In this document: positions 7,112-63,992 of the stretch, in pieces | Numbering within the stretch: position 1 is the stretch's first letter | Layout of the letters: each line of letters opens with the position of its first letter | From: an uncultured Verrucomicrobiae bacterium | GTDB taxonomy: Bacteria > Verrucomicrobiota > Verrucomicrobiia > Chthoniobacterales > Chthoniobacteraceae | NCBI GenBank assembly: GCA_963769025.1 | Contig: CAVYKI010000012.1 | Span: 416,001 to 480,000, forward strand | DNA: 64,000 nucleotides | Direction of reading: 5' to 3' | Notes under the pieces: model-generated | Seen by the model: the letters and a program-made list of their open reading frames with translations, nothing else | What the model was told of the DNA's origin: nothing | Database searches by the model: none | Position numbers and translations under genes: made by a program

Positions 7112-9643
7112 CCGACGCGCTCCTGAAGCTCTGCGGCCTCAGGGTGGAAAATGCGGCGCACGTGAGCGGCGCGGAGTTTGTCCTCCGCAACAAGCAGTGG
7201 CTCGGCTGGATCATCGGCATCGGCCTCGTGCTCGCGGTGCTCACGTGGGCTTCGTATCGGCGCGATGCGGCGGAGATGCTCAGCAAGGGAAAACGCCGCG
7301 TGCTCACGACGCTGCGCATCGTTCTCCTCGCGCTGCTCGGGCTCGTGCTGTTGCGGCCCGTCGTCGCATTCACCGTCGAGTCGGCGATCCGGCGCACACT
7401 GCTCACGCTCGTGGATACGAGCGGCAGCATGAAAATCCAGGACCCGCGCGTGGACTCTGCTGACCTCAAGCGCGCCGCCATCGCGAAGGGCATCCTCGAT
7501 CCGGGCAAGGGCCTCGACCAGCCACTCGACGCCACGCTCGCCGCAAATGTGAAGCTCGTCCCGCGCGTGGAAATCATGCGCGGCATGCTCGGCAACGAAC
7601 ATCTCCAGCTCTGGCCGCAGCTCGCGAAGGAACTCGATCTCGCCGCGTTCAGCTTCGGCGCGAACGCTCGGTGATGCCGGCGAGATCGGCGATTCCGCCG
7701 AATGGCTCGCGCACCTCGATCCCGTCGCCACGTCCACCGCCATCGGCGACGCCGTGCGCGACCTCATCCAGCGCAAGCGCGGCCAGCCGCTCGCGGGCAT
7801 CTTCCTCGTCACCGACGGCGCGAACAACCACGGCTCAGCGCCGCTCGACGCCGCGCGCCTCGCGAAGCAGGAGGGCATCCCGCTTTACATCTACGGCGTC
7901 GGCATCACGTCGCCGCGCGACATCATTGTCGGCAGCCTGCTCACGCAGGAGGTCGCGTTTGTAAAAGACGAATTGCCCGTGACCGTCCGCGTGCGCGGCC
8001 AGGGACTGAAAGGCGAGAGCGCGAAGCTCGTGGTGCGTCTCGTCCCCGTGAACTCGACCGGCGAAGGCGAGGTCGTCGCGACAAAGGAGATCACATTTGG
8101 TAGGACGCTTTCGCCGAAAGCGCCCACGCTTGAAAACGACACCTCCGGGAAAGACGGAGCGGCAAAACATGGGGCGGGTTCGGCGACCCCGCCCTACCTT
8201 GGCGACGATGAGGATCTCGTGGTCGCCGTGCCGTTCACGCCAAAGGCGACCGGCGACTTCGAGCTGCGCGCCAGCATCGCGCCGCGCGCCGACGAGGCGT
8301 CGAAGGACAACAACGCCGTCGCGCAACGGCTGCGCGTGATCGATTCCAAGGTGAAAATCCTCTACGTCGAGACCACGCCGCGCTGGGAATTCCGCTACCT
8401 GCAAAGCGTGCTCCTGCGCGACCGGCGCGTGGATTTGAAATGCGTGCTGCTCGAAGGCGACGAGAGCATCGCCGCGGGTGACGCGTCGCCATTCCTCGCG
8501 AAGGTGCCCGCGAAAAAGGACGACCTGTTCAAGTTCGACCTCATCATCATCGGCGACGTCGAGCCGCGGAATTTCACGCCCGAGCAGTTCGCCGCGTTCG
8601 AGGAATTCGTGCAGAAATTCGGCGGCTCGATGCTCTTCATCGCCGGCCCGCGCGCGAACCCCGCCGCGTATCGCACCACCACGCTGGAAAAGCTTTTGCC
8701 CGTCGAACTCGACCCCGCCGCCGCCACGCAGCAGCCCGCGCCTTCGCAGGGCGTCACCGTCGAACTCACCCCGCAAGGCCGCGCCAACCCGATGCTCAAG
8801 CTCGCCGCCACCGACGACGAGAGCGCCGCGATTTGGAAACGCTTCGGCAAACTCTACTCGGTCGCGCGCGTCCTCCGCGCCAAACCCGCCGCGCAAGTCC
8901 TCCTCGTGGACGCCGACCAATCCCGCGCGAATCGCCACGGCAAGCAGGTCCTCGCCGCCTTTCACCAATACGGCCTCGGCCAGGTGCTCTACATGGGCAC
9001 CGACAACACGTGGCGCTGGCGGCGCAACGCAGGCGATCAATTTTACCCGCTGCTCTGGGGTCAGATTGCGCAGAAACTCGGCCTGCACCACCTCCTCGGC
9101 GGCTCGAAGCGCACGCAGCTCACCGTGAATCGGCAGAACTACACCACCGGCGAGCGCGTCACCGTCTATGCACGCCTCTACGCGTCCGATTTTTCCCCCG
9201 TGAAAGAGCAGATCGTCGCCGCGGGCTACACCATTCGTGTGGCAGGCGCACCCGGCCCCGTGCGCGAAGTCCCGCTCCGCGCCGTGCCCGAACAGGCCGG
9301 CATGTATCGCGGCGATTTCGTCGCGCTCGAGCCGGGCGCGCACCAGTTCAGCGTGAAAAACGATCCCGCCACCGTGCTGGAGTTCAACGTCGCCGAGCCG
9401 AAATTCGAAACCGGCGAAACCGCGATGAACGAAGTCCTGCTCAGGCAAATGGCCGAAGCCAGCGGCGGCGCCTACTTCCGCGAAGAAACGCTCGCGCAAT
9501 TCCCCAAAGCCATCTCCGCCAAAGCCGAGCGAATCCAAGGCACCCTCGACGGCGAACTCTGGTCCTCCCCCCTCGCCTTCATCCTGCTGCTCACCGTCGC
9601 GACGATCGAGTGGGCGCTGCGGAAAAAGTGGCAGCTCAAGTGA
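7108..9643 (+). CDS. Membrane-anchored VWA / glutamine-amidotransferase-like domain protein (PVC type); frameshift near 7670
   Basis: N-terminal TMs, MIDAS-like DTSGSM, TDGANN, PRWEFRYL, TWRWR, C-terminal EWALRKK. The protein continues across two frames. Confidence 0.8.
8099..8200. repeat. GTAG-type REP doublet inserted in-frame in a CDS
   Basis: Left arm GGTAGGACGCTTTCGCCGAAAGCGCCC; right arm reverse-complemented GGTAGGGCGGGGTCGCCGAACCCGCCC. 100 bp plus duplicated TT = 102 bp. Confidence 0.85.
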
Positions 9644-9684
9644 GGCGCACGACTCGCGACGCGCTTGGTAATGGCTCCATTTGC

Positions 9685-9775
9685 ACCGCCAAGGCACCAA
9701 GACGCCGAGGTCGGAAAGTGGCAAGACAAGCCGCCCCGAGGTCCTGCGGCTTCCTTCCCTTGGCGCCTTGGCGGT
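9685..9775. repeat. Palindromic intergenic element, ACCGCCAAG family
   Basis: ACCGCCAAGGCACCAAG ... CTTGGCGCCTTGGCGGT inverted arms. Confidence 0.75.
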
Positions 9776-9839
9776 CTCTTCAAGCTGAGCCACTACCAAG
9801 TGCTTGCGTGCTTCGCGCGGAGCGCGTCGTATGCGGGGC

Positions 9840-10634
9840 ATGATCCGCCCCCTCGTTTTCCTGTGCGCCCTCCTTTTTGCAAACATCGCTGCTGCGCAGG
9901 AGGCGAAGCTGCCGCCGCGGGAAAAGTTCCATCTCTTCCTGCTCGTCGGACAGTCGAACATGGCGGGGCGTGGGACGGTGGAGGCTCAGGACAAGACGCC
10001 GCATCCGCGCGTGCTCATGCTGAACAAGGCGGAGACGTGGGTGCCCGCGGTCGATCCGCTGCACTTCGACAAGGCGGCTGCGGGCGTGGGGATCGGGAAG
10101 ACGTTCGCCACGCTCTACGCGGAGGCGCATCCGGGCATCACCGTGGGGCTGATTCCGTGCGCGGTCGGCGGGTCGCCGATTGATTCCTGGAGGCCGGGCG
10201 AATTTTACAAGCCGACGAACAGTCACCCGTGGGACGATGCGATTCGCCGCGCGCACGTGGCGCAGAAATCCGGCACGCTCACCGGCATCCTGTGGCATCA
10301 GGGCGAATCGGATTCCAACGAGAAGCTCGCGCCGGGCTACGAGGCGAAGCTGCACGATCTCATCGCGCGGATGCGCAAGGAACTCGAGGTGCCCGACGCG
10401 CCGTTCATCGTCGGGCAGATGGGGAAATTCGCCGAATCGCCTTGGAATGAAGCGAAGCTGCAGGTGGACAAGGCGCATCAGGATCTGCCGAAGAAGGTGC
10501 AGCGCACGGCATTCGCCAGCGCGGAGGGGCTGAAGCATCGCGGCGACAAGGTCCACTTCGACTCGCCGTCGTTCCGCGAGTTCGGAAAACGCTACTTCGC
10601 CGCATTCCAATCGCTGGCGAAGTCGGGACAGTGA
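9840..10634 (+). CDS. Sialate O-acetylesterase / CE6-like SGNH esterase (SASA domain), secreted
   Basis: Signal peptide, LLVGQSNMAGRG, PCAVGG, LWHQGESD, DKVHFD. Confidence 0.9.
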   Translation: MIRPLVFLCALLFANIAAAQEAKLPPREKFHLFLLVGQSNMAGRGTVEAQDKTPHPRVLMLNKAETWVPAVDPLHFDKAAAGVGIGKTFATLYAEAHPGITVGLIPCAVGGSPIDSWRPGEFYKPTNSHPWDDAIRRAHVAQKSGTLTGILWHQGESDSNEKLAPGYEAKLHDLIARMRKELEVPDAPFIVGQMGKFAESPWNEAKLQVDKAHQDLPKKVQRTAFASAEGLKHRGDKVHFDSPSFREFGKRYFAAFQSLAKSGQ

Positions 10635-10769
10635 TCTCCATTTGCCCATCGCCGCAATCCAAGGACAAGAGTGTCCATCGGCGAAAAAAGCATTGCTCCT
10701 TCATCGGCGAACGCAGGGCCGCTTTTTCACGCCGATGTATGAACTTCCCCGTCGATGAGACATTTTGCG

Positions 10770-11238
10770 CGACGCTGCGGGAGGTCCGGCGGCTGGCATT
10801 GATGAAATCCATCTGGGCAAGAAGGCGAAGTTCCTCACGCTGGTCATCGATCTGGACACCGGTCGCATCCTCTGGGTGGCCAAGGGGCGCGGCGGGGATG
10901 CACTGCGCAAGTTCTGGCGGCGGCTGCGGCTGGCCAGGGCACGCGTGGAGGCGGTGGCCTGCGACATGAGTGCCGCCTACTGGAGCGCATCCTCGAACAC
11001 CTGCCAGGGGCGGCCATCGTCTTCGACCACTTCCACATCATCAAACTGGCCAATGAAGATCGACGACCTGCGGCGCGCCTCCAGCGCGAGGCCGAGGTGC
11101 TCGGCTACCAGACCTCAAAGGCTCCCGCTACCTGCTGCTCACGGCAGCGAGAAGCTCACCGAGGACAAACGCGACAGACTCGCCGAGGCCCTGCGCTTCA
11201 ACAACCGCTCTCCACCGCCTACTATCTCAAGAGCTGTC
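10770..11238 (+). mobile_element. ISL3-family transposase internal fragment (frameshifted, no ends visible)
   Basis: IDEIHLGK, TLVIDLDTGRILWV, VEAVACDMSAAY, IVFDHFHIIKLAN and TAYYLK across frames. Confidence 0.8.
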
Positions 11239-11239
11239 A

Positions 11240-11711
11240 TTACTAGAGGGTTCTGGGCTTGAGTTGGTTGGCTCTGGTTTGGGTTCCAGCCGGTGAGCCG
11301 GCAGATACGGCGTTGCGAAAGCCCGAAGCGCGAGATGACCTCATTCATGGGGAATGGCGTGCTTTGGGCTTCAGGATCCTTTTTGGAGCCACTCCTTGAG
11401 GACCATCGCGTCCAGGGCCTGATCCGCCACAAGCTTCTCGAGCTTGCGGTTCTCCTCTTCGAGCAGGCGCACCCGCCGGGTGTCGTTGACCTGCAGCCCG
11501 CCAAACTTCTGCCTCCACTCGTAATAAGGTGGCCTTGCTGATGCCGTGGCGGCGGCAGAAATCCTCAACAGCGGCGCCGGCTTGCGCTTCATTGAGAACC
11601 TAAAAGATCTGTTCTTCGATGTATCGTTGTCGTTTCATGGATCGAGGATGTTGCGCCGCTTTCACGGCACTCCCTCAACCCAGCTCCGGCCAAATCTACG
11701 GGAGAAGCTCA
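11240..11711 (-). mobile_element. IS3-family (IS407-like) remnant: left end, degenerate orfA and start of orfB
   Basis: orfA from ATG 11638: MKRQRYIEEQIF*...CRRHGISKAT / YYEWRQKFGGL...LEEENRKLEKLVADQALD, then SQRRICRL. TG-initiated terminus at 11711. In-frame stop and frameshift. Confidence 0.8.
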
Positions 11712-11777
11712 GGTGCACTCAAAAACCATTGCTTTTCGGATGACCCATACTCTTCAACGGCACTACAGATGAGAGCT

Positions 11778-11817
11778 AAAAAAAAGAGCCCGTTTCAGCT
11801 TTCGCTGAAACGGGCTC
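11778..11817 (-). terminator. Rho-independent terminator of the rRNA operon
   Basis: 14-bp stem GAGCCCGTTTCAGC / GCTGAAACGGGCTC followed by a T8 run on the minus strand. Confidence 0.92.
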
Positions 11818-11822
11818 GTAAC

Positions 11823-11938
<116 letters not shown>

Positions 11939-12125
11939 GACCGGATTTTCCGAATTAAATCCGGACCTCTAGCGATTAAAGTCCGAGCTGCCGGACATTT
12001 TCACGTCACTGTATTCCTAAAGAACGGCTGGTTCCCTGACATCTGCATACATGTAGTTTGTGCAACTTCGCACTGAGTTTTTTCAGATCGCAAGATCCTT
12101 CTTCCTCGCGAATGTGAGGAAAGAG

Positions 12126-14979
<2,854 letters not shown>

Positions 14980-15230
14980 AATCTGTTCCTCAAACGGGCT
15001 TGCGCCCGTATTGGAAATTTGTGATAACTGAATTCCCTGTGACTGCATTTGACTGCGGCCACGTCAGATATTCAGACTCAGCATTTTGAAGTTGCATTTA
15101 TTACTACCATGTATGCAGATGTCAAAGAACCAGCAAGGCCATCTAGTGCAGCCTGCTGCGGTTTGGTTTCCGGGGTCTCCCCCTTTGTCGCCAATCTCAA
15201 AAAAGTCCATTTTGCTTGCCTTCCCTAGGC

Positions 15231-15307
15231 TGGTGGGCGTGGCAGGATTCGAACCTGCGACCCTGCGCTTATCAAGCGCATGCTCTAACCAACTGAGCTA
15301 CACGCCC
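15231..15307 (-). tRNA. tRNA-Ile(GAT)
   Basis: Cloverleaf GGGCGTGTAGCTCAG...CTTGATAAG...GGTTCGAATCC...CCA. Confidence 0.97.
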
Positions 15308-15354
15308 GGATTGCAGTTCCGGCACTCCCGGATGGGAGGTGGATGCGAGCCCGT

Positions 15355-15430
15355 TGGTGGAGGTAAGGGGACTCGAACCCCTGACCTATAGCTTGCAAAG
15401 CTACCGCTCTACCAACTGAGCTATACCCCC
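15355..15430 (-). tRNA. tRNA-Ala(TGC)
   Basis: GGGGGTATAGCTCAG...CTTTGCAAG...GGTTCGAGTCC...CCA. Confidence 0.97.
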
Positions 15431-15614
15431 AATTGTGTGTGATTCGATGTCCATCTTACGCCCGCTTGTGCGGGAAGTGAAGCAAAAACTGAATTGTGCG
15501 CTGCCGTTTCAAATTGTTTGAACCATGTCTTCTTTCGTCAACGTGGGTTTCAACGCATGACCATTGCTGGTTTTAGCGTTCGACCTATGCCGCCCCGTGA
15601 GGGGCGATGCATTA

Positions 15615-17179
<1,565 letters not shown>

Positions 17180-17496
17180 AAGTTAGTGCTGAGGCAGCAA
17201 GCCCCAGCGTCTGGCCGTTTTGGCCCGCCGTTTTACGGGCAGGCCTCGGCACTTTTCTTAAAATCAAAAATTTGACGTGCAACGCACAATTCAATTTTTG
17301 CTGTATGGACTGTTTTGAGTTTGTGTCCGCCACCGCTTCCACGAGGGATGCGGCGACGGGCGACTCGAAACCAAACTGTCAAAAAACTTGCAGCGCTTGC
17401 GAGCCTGCCGGCAACCAGACTTTCGTCTGCGCCAGCCGCTCTCGCGAGCAACTGTCCCGCACCTTTCGGCGCGTCCCTTGTTTCAGCGGGAGGGAC

Positions 17497-17631
17497 ACCC
17501 TATTCAGGTCTTCGTCATCGTCAACAGCTTTTTGCAAATTTCTTTGCTCGCTGCAACTTTGCCGAAGACCGCTTTGGACGGCCTCCGCACTTGCGGGGCG
17601 GTGTAGATAGCGGGTTCGTTTTTTGGGTCAA
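17497..17631 (-). promoter_or_regulatory. Tandem sigma70-type rRNA promoters (P1/P2)
   Basis: TTGACG-16 bp-TAGGGT (17524-17497) and TTGACC-16 bp-TATCTA (17631-17604), each with an A-rich upstream tract. Confidence 0.6.
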
Positions 17632-17879
17632 CAATCTTTTTGAAAAAACTTTCGTCCCCCACAGTGAAACCCCTGCGCCACGAGTGAAAACAGCATGCCC
17701 GCAAAATTCGTTTCCCCTTGTGAGAGCACGTGCAGCACGGGACTGCCCCGCCCTCTCTTTCAGCCGATCAAGAGCGCCTCGTGCACGCCACAGATCGCTG
17801 CGGTAGCAGCGAGTGCCGACTGCGCTTACGTCGCCCTTCACTCTCGCCACGCCCGCCCATTCCCGCTACGCCAGTCGCC

Positions 17880-20128
17880 ATGACTTCCCCGCAGACCGAG
17901 GTCCTCATCACCGTGGATGGACTTGAGCAAGGGCGCTTCGTCGTCGAGCCGGGCGAATTCGTCATCGGGCGCAATGCCGACTGCCACCTCCGCGTGGACG
18001 CCGAACTCGTCTCTCGTGAGCACGCGAAGCTCATCCTCAACTACGACCACGCGCTCATCGAGGATCTCGGCTCCGCGAACGGCACCTTCGTGAACGACAA
18101 GCCGGTCACCGAGCGCACGCGGCTCTGGCCGGGCCAGAAAATCTGCATCGGCGAGGCGACCATCACGCTCCGGCGGCTTGCAAGGTGAAGCGCCCACGGA
18201 CATGTCGCTCGCCCCTGCGCAGCGGGCACGTGCGCCGGCATGCTGCCCGCGGAGATGCTGCGGGAGAAAAAGTATGACATCGGCGCAGTCGTCGCGCGCG
18301 GCGGCATGGGCGCGATCCTCGATGCGCGCGAGGCGGCCATCGAGCGCAAGGTGGCGATGAAGGTGATGCTCGACACGAACGACGCGGACGACGATCGCGC
18401 GCTTCGTCGCCGAGGCGCAGATCACCGGCCAGCTCGAGCACCCGAACATCGTGCCCGTCCACGAGCTGGGCGTGGATGAAAACGGGCAGCCTTTTTACAC
18501 GATGAAGATGGTGCGCGGCATCACGCTGAAGAAGGTGCTCGAGCTGCTCGCGCAGGGCGTCGCCGAGACGGTGAAAAAGTATCCGCTCGCCGCGCTGCTC
18601 ACCATCTTCCAAAAGGTCTGCGACGCCATCGCCTTCGCGCACAGCAAGGGCGTCATCCACCGCGACCTGAAGCCGGAGAACATCATGCTCGGCGACTTCG
18701 GCGAGGTGCTCGTCATGGATTGGGGGCTCGCGAAAGTGCTCGGATCGCCGGCGCGGATGCCGCCGCGAGCGTCGCACTCGGGCAGGACCTGCGTTCCGTC
18801 GTCCACAGCGCGCGCTCCGGCGATGCGAGCATCCGGCATCGATGACGCTCGCCGGCACGATCATGGGCACGCCGCAGTACATGACCCCCGAGCAGGCGCG
18901 CGGCGAGGTCGAGACGCTCGACGCGCGCACGGACATCTACGCGCTCGGCGCGATCCTCTACCACATCCTCGCCCTGCGCCCGCCGGTGAGCGGCACGGAC
19001 GCGATGGAGATCGTCGGCAAGGTCGGGCGCGGGGAGATCGAGCCGTTGGATTCACCGCGGCCAAGACGGCGCAGGACGCCAAGGACGCCGGGCAGCCATC
19101 GGACTCGGCTTGGCGCCTTCGCCGTCTTGGCGGTCATCTCCCCGGAGGCACGCATCCCCGAGAGCCTCGCCGCCGTGGTGAACAAGGCCATGGCCCTCGA
19201 CCCCGCGGCAGCGCTACGCCGCGCGTCGAGGACCTGCAGGCCGACGAATCCTCGCCTACCAGAACGGCTTCGCCACCGGCGCGGAACGGGCCGGCTGGGG
19301 CAAGCGCGCCCTGCTCGCCATCAAGCGCAACAAGGCCGCCTCCATCGGCGCCGCCGTCGGTGCTGCTCATCGGCGGCGGCTTCGGCACGAAGGCGTCGTC
19401 GAAGGCCGCCGGGCCGAGCGGGCGCTGACGGAATTGAAAAGCACCGCGCCGGTGTTTTTTGCTGAATCGAAGCGCCTCATGCTCGATCTGAAGTTCGACG
19501 AGGCGTTCGCCCGGCTGGATATCGCTGTCGCCCTGCAGCCGGATAACGGCGACTACCTCCTCGGACGCGCACACATGAGGCAAGGAAGCGAGCGCCTAAG
19601 CGAGGCGATTGCCGACTACGCTCGCGTTCTCCGACTGAGACCGTCCGATGATCTGGCCAAACAAAACCTCGCTCTTTCACAGCGCATTCTCGCACAAAGC
19701 GGCGGTCAGACTCCGCTCGACCCCGAGGCACGGGCCGAACTTTACGCAGCGATAAAGAAGCTAGGTCGTGAAATGGACATTCTCCCGCTGGCGCTCCTGC
19801 TCGGCAAGGAAGGCGACGCAGCAATGGAATTGCTGAATGCGCGCATCGCACCGTTGATGACGCATCCCAAGTGGAATGCTGCACGTGTGCAGCGTTTCGC
19901 CGACGGCACGCTGCAAGTGTATCTGGACGGCCTCCCGGTTCCCGACCTCTCGCCGCTCGAAGGGCTGCCCATCTCCAATCTCAATATCTCAGGTACCGGC
20001 GCAGCCGACCTTGCGCCGGCTTTCCAATCGTGGAGTCGGCTTGCTGGATTCCGACTGGGCAAAAGCTCCCACCGTAGCCGAATTCTGGCGCGCCTATGAC
20101 GCCCAACGTGCGGTTCAGCAAAAAGTAA
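17880..20128 (+). CDS. FHA domain + Ser/Thr protein kinase + TPR/LRR protein; multiple frameshifts
   Basis: FHA ([17 protein letters not shown]); kinase ([40 protein letters not shown]); TPR-like helices; LRR-like [10 protein letters not shown]. Spread over several frames, end approximate. Confidence 0.82.
19054..19134. repeat. ACCGCCAAG-family palindrome inside the kinase CDS
   Basis: ACCGCGGCCAAGACGGCGCAGGACGCCAAG ... CTTGGCGCCTTCGCCGTCTTGGCGGT, 81 bp, same family as 9685-9775. Confidence 0.75.
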
Positions 20129-20144
20129 GCCGCAACGGAAGTGG

Positions 20145-21953
20145 CTACACCGCCGCGACGGGCACTGGCTCGACCCATTTGCCGTGTTCGCGGATGAGGT
20201 CCTTCAGACGGTCCACGGCCTCGGCCTCGGGGATGTTGAACTTCACGGCCTGCTTGCCCACGTAGAGGTTCACTTTTCCCGGCGCGCCGCCGACGTAGCC
20301 GAAGTCGGCATCGGCCATTTCGCCGGGGCCGTTCACGATGCAGCCCATGATGGCGATTTTCACGCCCTTGAGGTGCAGCGTGGAGGCTTTGATTTTCGCC
20401 GTCGTGCTCTGCAGGTCGAACAGCGTGCGCCCGCAGCTCGGGCAGGCCACGTAGTCGGTCTTGAAGATGCGGGCGCCGGCGGCCTGCAGGATGTTGAAAG
20501 CGAGGCGCAGCGACTGGCCGGGCGCTTCCTCGCCCTGCACGAGGATGGCGTCGCCGATGCCGTCGCAGAGCAGCGAGCCGATGTTCACGGAGCTTTCGAG
20601 CAGCGTGTCGAGGAAGGGGCGCTGCGCGTCCTGCGAGGGCGTGAGCGTGTCTTTCAGCAAAATCGGGTGCGGAGCGGTGATCCGCGCGGCGAGGAGGCGG
20701 AAGGCGGCGATGACGGGCATCCCGAGGCCGTCCTTCACGGTGATGAGGTGCGGCTCGTCCGCGGCGTTCAGCTCGGCGATGCCCTTGGTGTCGCGCGGGT
20801 CCACCTCGATGACGCCGGAACGCTCGAAAACAAAATCGGGCTGAAAATCGCCGAGCGAACGGACCTTGTGCGCGATCTGGTCGAACTTCGCCTGGCGGAT
20901 CGCGACGCGCGGGACTTCCTCGCCGCCAATGTGGGACGGGCTTCCAGCCTGTCCATCCGCAGCCGGGACTGCGGACGGCACTTCGATGCGGGAAGTGACC
21001 CTGCGGGCGTAGCTGAACGGATCGAATGACACTGCAGGAAGATTTTCCCCGAGCGCGTCGCCGCCACGCTTCAGGCCAGCGAGCGCCTTTGCCACCGGGA
21101 TCTCGTGGACGCTGTCCTCGGTGAGCGAGACGCGGATGGTGTCGCCGACGCCGTCGTTCAGCAGCGCTGCCGATGCCGATGGCGCTCTTGATGCGGCCAT
21201 CCTCGCCGTCGCCGGCCTCGGTGACGCCGAGGTGGATGCGGGTAATTCCAATCCGGCCCCTCCTCCGCGAGCCGCGCGACGAGCAGGCGGTAGGCCTCGA
21301 TCATCACCTTCGGGTTCGACGACTTCATCGAGAAGATGAAGTCGTGGTAGTCGAGGTCGCGGGCGATGCGGACGAATTCCAGCGCGCTCTCGACCATGCC
21401 GAGCGGCGTGTCGCCGTAGCGGTTCATGATGCGGTCGCTGACAGCGAGCCGTGGTTCGTGCCGATGCGCATCGCGACGCCCGAGCTCCTTGCAAAGCTCG
21501 CACGAGCGGCGAGAAACGCTCGTGGATGCGCTCGCAGTTCGGCGGCGTACTGCTCGTCGGTGTATTCCTTGACCGCGAATTTTTTCGAGTCGGCGTAGTT
21601 GCCGGGATTGATGCGCACTTTCTCCACCCACTTCGCGGCCTCCATCGCGGCGCTCGGGCTTGAAATGGATGTCCGCGACAATCGGCACGTCGCAGCCCGC
21701 GCGCGCGCAGGCCGGCGACGATGTACTGCAGATTCGCCGCGTCCTTCACCGTCGGCGCGGTGATGCGCACGATCTCGCAGCCGACCGCGGCGAGGTCGAT
21801 CGTCTGTTTGATGGACGCCTCGGTGTCCATCGTGTCGCAGGTGATCATGGACTGCACGCGCACCGGATTGACCCCGCCGACTGCGACTTTTCCGATTTGG
21901 ACGACACGTGTTTTCCGCCGCCGGTATTCGTAGAAGGATTCGCAGTAGGTCAT
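20145..21953 (-). CDS. ispG: (E)-4-hydroxy-3-methylbut-2-enyl-diphosphate synthase (long form); internal frameshifts about 21170-21700
   Basis: [60 protein letters not shown]. Confidence 0.95.
20931..20981. repeat. REP-like doublet in-frame within ispG
   Basis: GTGGGACGGGCTTCCAGCCTGTC hairpin plus opposed GTGCCGTCCGCAGTCCCGGCTGCGG hairpin; 51 bp = 17 codons. Confidence 0.75.
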
Positions 21954-42721: not shown

Positions 42722-42794
42722 GTGCGGAGGTGGTTTTTCAAAGCGCGGGCGACGGGGTTTCTTAGCCGGGAGGCTGCGCTCCGGATCATTTTGA

Positions 42795-42891
42795 AACGCA
42801 GAGACGCAGAGAGGCGGAGAAAAAACAGCCAAAATCTCAATGCACCGTCCGCAGGTGTCCATGCCTCCCCGCCGCCTCTTCAGCTCAGCGT
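42795..42891. repeat. Degenerate palindromic element (ACGCAGAG units)
   Basis: AACGCAGAGACGCAGAGAGGCGG ... CCGCCTCTTCAGCTCAGCGT imperfect inverted arms. Confidence 0.5.
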
Positions 42892-63904: not shown

Positions 63905-63992
63905 CGTAGCCGCCGACGGCAGGAGGCGGGCTGATTTCTCGCACGGAGCAGTCGAGGAAAAGCGTGCCCGCCTCCTTCCGTCGGCGGCTACG
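63905..63992. repeat. GTAG-type REP doublet (REPIN-like)
   Basis: CGTAGCCGCCGACGGCAGGAGGCGGGC ... GCCCGCCTCCTTCCGTCGGCGGCTACG, near-perfect inverted arms. Confidence 0.85.

What the first reader, a model, noticed from the sequence alone, without database searches (positions are those of the whole stretch)
8099..20981. Protein-coding palindromes: three REP-like families translated inside three genes
Seen: within 13 kb, a VWA membrane protein (102 bp), a Ser/Thr kinase (81 bp) and IspG (51 bp) each contain a palindromic element whose length is a multiple of three and that has no stop codon. Similar elements are also intergenic here. Known: in-frame palindromic insertions are described for Rickettsia palindromic elements, whereas REPs are normally extragenic. 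Inference: this lineage may routinely gain new protein loops from several REP families, even in an essential enzyme. This is my best candidate for an undescribed system in the window; I cannot confirm novelty without a literature and database search.
Basis: partly seen in the sequence, partly recalled or inferred. Interest (0 to 1): 0.8.

Follow-up and report, generated by a model that had tools for sequence, protein, structure and literature searches.

The report
REP palindromes translated inside genes
Small selfish hairpin-forming DNA repeats have landed in frame inside several ordinary genes of this soil-type bacterium and add floppy loops to the proteins, a real but already described behaviour of such repeats.

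Summary
They belong to three repeat families that recur in this genome. F1 is a GTAG-headed REP doublet with 42 units. F8 is a GTGG/GTAG REP. F7 is a CGCCAAG-heptad inverted-repeat element.

- **VWA-like protein:** 11 of 11 same-genus orthologues show a clean 34-residue gap.
- **Kinase:** the closest orthologue lacks the insert.
- **IspG:** the true element is a 24-nt REP shared by four species.

Genome-wide, 12 of 167 repeat loci lie in frame inside genes such as QueA, MetG, UvrA, UvrD and a PBP, and none breaks a frame.

The lineage does gain protein loops from several REP families. It is not an undescribed system. Di Nocera et al. 2013 (PMC3733652) reported intragenic GTAG REPs, most numerous in the verrucomicrobium Opitutus terrae, in uvrA and uvrD, plus tRNA-synthetase genes in other species. 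This scan has also met the phenomenon in other genomes.

Caveat: the kinase and IspG frames in this assembly are broken by many single extra bases, probably consensus errors.

The parts
8099..8200 (+). F1 REP doublet (REPIN-like, GTAG heads outward). Adds 34 codons to the VWA-like protein.
   Evidence: Sequence read. 42 family units at up to 4 mismatches. 11 of 11 orthologues have a 34-residue gap. The empty DNA site is ATCACGT|TTGGCGAC. Environmental contigs of relatives skip exactly these 102-103 nt.
7754..9643 (+). Host ORF: DUF7408 protein with a weak VWA signal and a C-terminal hydrophobic tail.
   Evidence: Orthologues 68-96% identical.
19051..19131 (+). Degenerate F7-type palindromic element (CGCCAAG-heptad inverted repeats) in a C-lobe loop of a Ser/Thr kinase.
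   Evidence: Frame read. The right arm matches the F7 terminal repeat at 24 of 26 positions, with a 12-14-nt exact terminal match. The closest orthologue L030 lacks it.
17881..19430 (+). FHA-domain plus Ser/Thr kinase gene. Its frame is broken at least 5 times in this assembly.
   Evidence: Single extra bases relative to orthologue L030.
20931..20954 (-). F8 REP unit (GTGG-headed, stem GGACAGGC/GCCTGTCC). Encodes GQAGSPSH in IspG.
   Evidence: The same unit sits at the same site in L014, L015 and L016 and is absent in L020.
20955..20981 (-). It is not part of the repeat.
   Evidence: Not conserved in the three other REP-bearing orthologues.
20145..21953 (-). IspG (GcpE) ORF, long form. Out of frame over about residues 85-260 in this assembly.
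   Evidence: Pfam. Alignment. Eight sites with extra bases, 9 nt in total, relative to two orthologues. Only one IspG match in the genome.
9685..9775 (.). Intergenic F7-family palindromic element between the VWA-like gene and a SASA esterase gene.
63905..63992 (.). Intergenic F2 GTAG REP doublet.
42794..42819 (.). Intergenic F4 repeat copy.

Best explanation
These are copies of several small, non-autonomous palindromic repeat families that spread through the genome.
- **F1, F2 and F8** are GTAG/GTGG-tagged REPs, single or as inverted doublets.
- **F7** is an inverted-repeat, MITE-like element.

Most copies sit between genes, typically just after stop codons.

**What is shown.** The elements are family members. 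Orthologues have empty sites. The reading frame is kept. Copies are depleted from genes.

**What is inferred.**
- When a copy lands inside a gene it usually destroys it and is lost.
- A copy survives if the net change is a multiple of three, the reading frame through the G+C-rich palindrome has no stop (about three quarters of frames do not), and it falls in a tolerant surface loop or linker.
- Survivors are then translated as a Gly/Ala/Ser/Pro/Arg-rich, probably disordered loop.
- They persist through speciation and decay by point changes and deletions.
- The mobilising enzyme is a Y1/HUH tyrosine transposase acting on hairpins in single-stranded DNA.
For: **Family membership**
- The F1 motif has 42 hits at up to 4 mismatches, many as inverted pairs with variable spacers.
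- A second scan of a degenerate F1 pattern at up to 2 mismatches found 42 in G000 and 16 in G014, with 0 for the reversed control.
- F7 has 7 loci and F8 has 3 plus IspG.

**Empty sites in orthologues**
- VWA-like protein: 11 of 11 orthologues lack the insert. At DNA level the net gain is 102 nt.
- Amidohydrolase: 2 of 2 orthologues lack a 26-residue insert.
- Kinase: orthologue L030 lacks the insert.

**Location**
- Of 167 repeat loci, 12 (7.2%) have both flanks coding in one open frame. The same caller scores 40.6% of 3000 random positions that way.
- 13 loci lie between convergent genes and 1 between divergent genes.
- Of the 6 loci whose flanks are in different frames, 5 are ordinary gaps between co-directional genes and 1 is a chance-like 18-mer. 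No frame-breaking insertion was seen.
- 744 of 1002 element-by-frame readings are stop-free.

**Persistence and decay**
- The IspG REP is shared by 4 species.
- Among 27 QueA sequences, the loop is intact F1 doublet in 3, a degenerate 19-residue form in 4, other expansions in 3, and a short loop in 17.

**Hosts and structure**
- Hosts are QueA, MetG, UvrA-like, UvrD, a PBP, kinases, PSCyt and DUF7133.
- In a low-confidence model the insert is coil with pLDDT 26-28 between two strands.

**Same behaviour in print**
- PMC3733652.
Against: - **No linked transposase.** The only Y1_Tnp hit (C9:555357-555686) scores 58.8 bits against the 80-bit cut-off of the REP-associated transposase model, and its flanks carry none of these repeats.
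- **Not all sites are clean.** In QueA and the amidohydrolase the element replaces about 20-27 nt of the ancestral loop.
- **Phylogenetic conflict in QueA.** The F1 doublet is present in G000, G014 and G004 but absent in G012, G015 and G112, which by identity of the aligned part (86-91%) are the nearest. This needs either loss or transfer.
- **No expression evidence.** No RNA or peptide evidence shows the inserts are expressed in this organism.
- **Weak structural support.** The model is poor, with mean pLDDT 47.8.
Confidence: 0.85

Rival explanations
1. The palindromic loops are kept because they do something. They might be selected protein loops, or mRNA hairpins that pause translation or set RNA stability inside these genes.
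For: - The IspG REP is retained in four species, with a pairable stem in all four.
- The same loops are occupied in several species.
- The published authors also wondered about the excess in DNA-repair genes.
Against: - Hosts are unrelated proteins.
- The closest relatives do without the inserts.
- Copies decay.
- Copies are about 5.6-fold rarer in genes than random positions.
Confidence: 0.1
2. The segments are ancestral loop sequence that relatives deleted, and they only resemble repeats by chance.
For: - QueA and MetG loops vary in length across the genus.
- Some sites are not clean insertions.
Against: - The VWA insert matches a 42-unit family. It matches the commonest 27-mer at 26 of 27 positions and is missing in 11 of 11 orthologues.
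- The reversed-pattern control gives 0.
Confidence: 0.03
3. Assembly artefact: repeats were mis-joined into genes in an error-prone assembly.
For: This stretch of the assembly has many single extra bases. The genome is 83% complete in 13 contigs.
Against: - The same inserts occur in other assemblies. IspG carries it in three other genomes and QueA in two.
- A near-identical public contig covers 8122-8400 without a difference, although it may be the source sample.
Confidence: 0.02

Closest known systems
Intragenic GTAG-tagged REPs, especially of Opitutus terrae (Di Nocera, De Gregorio and Rocco 2013, PMC3733652; passages read)
   Same: - GTAG or GTGG head followed by a G+C-rich hairpin.
- Single units and inverted dimers.
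- Mostly 3' of genes, with the TAG of the head serving as a stop codon.
- A minority of copies entirely inside ORFs, encoding 20-30 residues.
- Hosts include two uvrA genes and uvrD; tRNA-synthetase genes are hosts in other species of that study.
- Same phylum.
   Different: - Different order (labels of REP-sharing records point to Chthoniobacteraceae) and different family sequences. The published consensus figure was not available to me.
- A non-GTAG family (F7) behaves the same way here.
- IspG, QueA and kinases as hosts were not seen in the passages I read. The supplement listing hosts could not be opened.
Rickettsia palindromic elements, RPE (Ogata et al. 2000; known to me from recall and from citations in PMC3733652 and PMC3184786)
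   Same: Palindromic repeats inserted in frame in functional genes, presumably in surface loops. Several families occur in one genome.
   Different: - Different phylum. A free-living genome of 5.3 Mb with 64% G+C, not a reduced A+T-rich one.
- The units here are shorter, 24-102 nt.
- Sequence relatedness was not tested.
REPIN/RAYT systems (Bertels and Rainey 2011, PMC3116915; search listing and abstract only)
   Same: Two inverted REPs with a spacer, forming a long hairpin and dispersed in tens of copies.
   Different: No REP-flanked RAYT was found here. Copy numbers are low. 7 of 51 F1 loci (14%) are intragenic.
BRE of Bordetella and other in-frame small repeats reviewed by Delihas 2011 (PMC3184786; section 15 read)
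   Same: Small repeats fused internally and in frame into about 9 protein genes.
   Different: Unrelated taxa and sequences.

Membership tests
GTAG-tagged REP | 20-40 nt imperfect palindrome with a G+C-rich stem | tested here: met
   F1 is GGGCGC-TTTCGCCGAAA-GCGCCC and F8 is GGACAGGC-TTCC-AGCCTGTCC. Fold z-scores range from -2.4 to -8.8.
GTAG-tagged REP | GTAG (or GTGG/GYRG) tetranucleotide at one end | tested here: met
   F1 has GGTAGGG, F2 has GTAGCC, and F8 has GTAGGAC or GTGGGAC. F7, the kinase family, has no such tag, so F7 is not filed here.
GTAG-tagged REP | Many dispersed copies, mostly extragenic and downstream of genes | tested here: met
   - 167 loci from 14 seeds.
- 7.2% intragenic against 40.6% for random positions.
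- 13 convergent against 1 divergent.
- F8 has only 4 loci.
GTAG-tagged REP / REPIN | Inverted dimers with a spacer | tested here: met
   F1 and F2 doublets. There are 23 and 21 non-intragenic loci of 50 nt or more.
REPIN/RAYT system | A single-copy RAYT gene flanked by the same REPs | tested here: not met
   There is one Y1_Tnp hit. It scores 58.8 bits against the 80-bit cut-off of NF047646, and its 400-nt flanks match no repeat family. The genome is 83% complete, so a RAYT may be missing from the assembly.
Rickettsia RPE | Sequence relatedness to RPE-1 to RPE-8 | not tested
Rickettsia RPE | In-frame insertion in genes that stay functional | tested here: inconclusive
   Frames are kept at 12 loci. 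Function and expression could not be tested.
MITE (for F7) | Terminal inverted repeats plus a target-site duplication | tested here: inconclusive
   Terminal inverted repeats of about 25-27 nt are present in 5 of 7 loci. A duplication cannot be read from the two filled/empty comparisons. The F1 site shows a possible TT or TTGG duplication.

The most novel reading that the evidence does not exclude
In this genus, insertion and decay of palindromic repeats may be a main source of loop-length change in housekeeping enzymes. The same few permissive loops (QueA, MetG, IspG, the kinase C-lobe) are colonised again and again by different families, including a non-GTAG inverted-repeat family. This would point to targeted landing sites or repeat-for-repeat replacement rather than mere survivorship.
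Probability: 0.3. Interest if true: 0.45.

Novelty: new member of a known kind. Interest (0 to 1): 0.3.

Why it matters
- **Annotation.** Annotators and structure predictors should expect repeat-derived, probably disordered loops inside essential genes of Verrucomicrobia, and should not call such genes broken or novel.
- **Evolution.** The genus offers many filled, empty and decayed alleles of the same loops. These could be used to measure how long selfish insertions survive inside proteins.
- **Scope.** It does not open a new kind of system.

Tried and rejected
- **De novo repeat discovery by k-mers.** 13-mers seen 8 or more times were far too permissive, giving 21,543 loci. 16-mer components were dominated by conserved coding motifs of gene families. 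I therefore used 14 hand-picked seeds taken from the top 14-mers. The catalogue is incomplete. For example, the IspG copy was scored 'one flank coding' and the kinase copy was missed.
- **Tip-to-tip element length modulo 3.** This is not meaningful, because the inserted length includes junction bases.
- **Density of same-strand frame switches as a measure of assembly errors.** About 5-6 per 10 kb everywhere, which cannot be told apart from ordinary gene boundaries.
- **RNA evidence.**
  - The two RNA-library runs that were laid hold only contigs about 90-95% alike that skip the element. These are empty alleles of relatives, and a DNA run shows the same joint.
  - Nothing can be said about expression of the insert in this organism.
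- **Structure mapping.** The model of the VWA-like protein is poor (mean pLDDT 47.8, pTM 0.29, 12-row alignment). I did not run fold searches on it.
- **Linking the repeats to a RAYT.** No link was found.
- **Intron- or intein-like removal.** Considered, but nothing in the 24-102-nt hairpins suggests it.
Full report
**Setting.**
- The window is G000:C12:416001-480000, about 64% G+C.
- An rRNA operon lies at 11822-17179 on the minus strand.
- Public records that hold the exact 27-nt F1 repeat are labelled Chthoniobacteraceae or Verrucomicrobia. One metagenome-assembled genome (MAG) is labelled Hydrogenedentota.
- I therefore take the organism to be a verrucomicrobium of the Chthoniobacterales. 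This is an inference.

**The three elements.**
- *VWA-like gene.*
  - Window 8099-8200 begins at codon 116 of the + ORF 7754..9643 and reads GRTLSPKAP...GAGSATPPYL without a stop.
  - It is an inverted pair of GTAG-headed hairpins.
  - Pfam finds DUF7408. It also finds a sub-threshold VWA match just upstream of the insert.
- *Kinase.*
  - Window 19051-19131 is a long imperfect palindrome (fold z = -5.4).
  - It lies in the frame that reads a Ser/Thr kinase C-lobe before and after it.
- *IspG.* Window 20931-20981 lies in codons 325-341 of a long-form IspG.

All three fold better than shuffles.

**They are copies of repeat families.**
- *F1.*
  - The first arm of the VWA element recurs 42 times at up to 4 mismatches. 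It usually has an inverted partner ending ...CGCCCTACC after a variable spacer.
  - A separate pattern search at up to 2 mismatches gave 42 in G000, 16 in G014, 1-2 in three other genomes, and none in the other 116 of 121 genomes of the order. The reversed control gave 0.
- *F8.* The IspG unit matches CAATGT[A/G]GGACAGGCTTCCAGCCTGTCC at three other loci, one of them an inverted doublet.
- *F7.*
  - The kinase element is a degenerate member of a 7-locus family. Its terminal inverted repeats are built of CGCCAAG heptads.
  - The right arm matches at 24 of 26 positions, with an exact 12-14-nt terminal match. Blast at E 1e-3 or better had found only itself.
  - An intergenic F7 copy lies at 9685-9775 in the window.

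**Orthologues.**
- *VWA-like protein.*
  - 11 of 11 same-genus orthologues (68-96% identical) have a clean 34-residue gap.
  - At DNA level the empty site is ATCACGT|TTGGCGAC and the net gain is 102 nt, with TT or TTGG present at both junctions.
  - Public contigs about 90-95% alike, one from a DNA run and two from RNA libraries, join exactly across the element. These are empty alleles of relatives, not splicing.
- *Kinase.*
  - The closest orthologue (L030, 87% identical over the first 67 residues) has a short loop without the element.
  - This loop, between GRGEIEPL and IPESLAAV, is 4 to over 40 residues long among paralogues and orthologues.
  - A G000 paralogue (C3:251885-251978) carries an F1 doublet at the same place.
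- *IspG.*
  - The 24-nt REP, which encodes GQAGS[L/P]S[H/Y], is at the same site in G000, G003, G015 and G010.
  - It is absent from G011 and from more distant species.
  - G003, G015 and G010 carry a second, inverted copy about 40 codons upstream. G015 and G010 have a further palindrome-like insert earlier in the protein.

**Genome-wide.**
- Fourteen seeds gave 167 loci.
- A codon-usage caller trained on this genome found both flanks coding in one open frame at 12 loci. It found 0 in the same frame with a stop, 6 on the same strand in different frames, 13 convergent, 1 divergent, 72 with one coding flank and 63 with none.
- The same caller scores 40.6% of 3000 random positions as in-frame-open. 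The repeats (7.2%) are therefore strongly depleted from genes.
- Of the six different-frame loci, five are ordinary gaps between co-directional genes, two of them using the TAG of the GTAG head as the stop codon. One is a doubtful 18-mer.
- The 12 intragenic loci lie in the VWA-like protein and 11 further ORFs:
  - QueA
  - an Amidohydro_1 enzyme (I read it as urease alpha from recalled motifs; not tested)
  - MetG
  - a PBP transpeptidase
  - a PSCyt1/PSCyt2 protein
  - a second kinase
  - a DUF7133/HEAT/cytochrome c protein
  - UvrD
  - a cytochrome c protein
  - two UvrA-like ORFs
- About three quarters of element-by-frame readings are stop-free (744 of 1002). Roughly one random intragenic hit in four would therefore keep an ORF open.

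**Other hosts compared with five close genomes.**
- *Amidohydrolase.* The insert of 26 residues is missing in both genomes that have the gene, out of 5 searched.
- *MetG.* One loop carries different palindrome-like segments in G000, G015, and G010/G003, and none in G012/G014.
- *PBP.* The QSG[R/S]GLPQSK unit is shared with G010 only.
- *QueA*, across 27 sequences from 26 genomes (three fragmentary loci, L102, L104 and L105, were left out):
  - 17 have a 5-7-residue loop.
  - 3 have an intact F1 doublet (G000, G014, G004).
  - 4 have a degenerate 19-residue form.
  - 3 have other expansions, including a 45-residue segment of another family in G010.
- In QueA and the amidohydrolase the element replaces about 20-27 nt of the older loop, so these are not clean additions.

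**Mechanism.**
- The anatomy is that of REPs and REPINs.
- I found one Y1 transposase-like gene. It scores below the curated cut-off for REP-associated transposases and is not flanked by these repeats. The mobilising enzyme is therefore inferred, not shown.
- The structural model of the VWA-like protein is poor (mean pLDDT 47.8). In it the insert is coil with pLDDT 26-28 between strands 106-114 and 154-158. This fits a loop but carries little weight.

**Assembly quality.**
- Compared with two orthologues, the G000 IspG has eight sites with extra bases, 9 nt in all, between nt 255 and 789 of the gene. These garble residues about 85-260 while the frame stays open.
- The kinase has at least ten single extra bases compared with L030.
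- IspG has only one match in the genome. I therefore think these are consensus errors next to the rRNA operon, not pseudogenes.
- They do not touch the inserts' local frames.

**What is known.**
- Di Nocera et al. 2013 (PMC3733652; passages read) sorted REPs into GTAG and CGTC superfamilies. From those passages:
  - REPs lie entirely within ORFs.
  - A GTGG variant is described.
  - Inserts are dimers encoding 20-30 residues.
  - Both O. terrae uvrA genes are interrupted.
  - UvrD and, in other species, tRNA synthetases are among the hosts.
  - TAG of the head serves as a stop codon.
  - Different REPs occur at about the same site of recB in two Xanthomonas species.
- Delihas 2011 (PMC3184786; section 15 read) reviews RPE, BRE and others fused in frame.
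- A search for 'Rickettsia palindromic element' together with 'Verrucomicrobia' found nothing. Three other searches found no paper on this genus.
- Earlier notes of this scan report the same phenomenon in other genomes, with the same conclusion.

**Verdict.** It is a new example of a described behaviour, in a new lineage, with one extra non-GTAG family.

Noticed in passing
window 17881-21953: There are many single extra bases relative to orthologues: 8 sites in IspG and at least 10 in the kinase. All are insertions in G000, and they break or garble both genes. IspG has only one match in the genome. These are probably consensus errors beside the rRNA operon.
   Followed up: partly
window 7553-7754 and upstream: Orthologues of the VWA-like protein have open frames of 821-1031 residues, but G000 has only 696. 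The N-terminal part, including the first half of the VWA domain, may be cut off by a frame error near here.
   Followed up: no
G000:C9:979979-980052: An F1 doublet lies in frame between the C-terminus of one UvrA-like ORF (...HTGRYL) and the N-terminus of a second one, with no stop. This gives a 1336-residue open frame.
   Followed up: no
L014-L016 (IspG of G003, G015, G010): These species carry a second, inverted copy of the same REP about 40 codons upstream of the shared one. G015 and G010 have a third palindrome-like insert after ...RLDEE.
   Followed up: partly
L069, L070, L075, L078: The exact 27-nt F1 repeat occurs four times in a MAG labelled Candidatus Hydrogenedentota, a different phylum. 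This could be mis-binning or real cross-phylum sharing.
   Followed up: no
G000:C3:388287 and C4:20284: The TAG inside the GTAG head of F1 serves as the stop codon of the upstream gene, as described in PMC3733652.
   Followed up: partly
window 10765-11262: An ISL3-family transposase fragment (Pfam 5.2e-15) lies between the SASA esterase gene and the rRNA operon.
   Followed up: no
G000 genome-wide: Further abundant repeat families were not studied. Examples are CTGGACTGCGGCAGCTCGCTGCCGCTTTG (57 hits), CTCCGCGTCTCTGCGTTT (71 hits), and a family of about 645 nt present at four loci.
   Followed up: no
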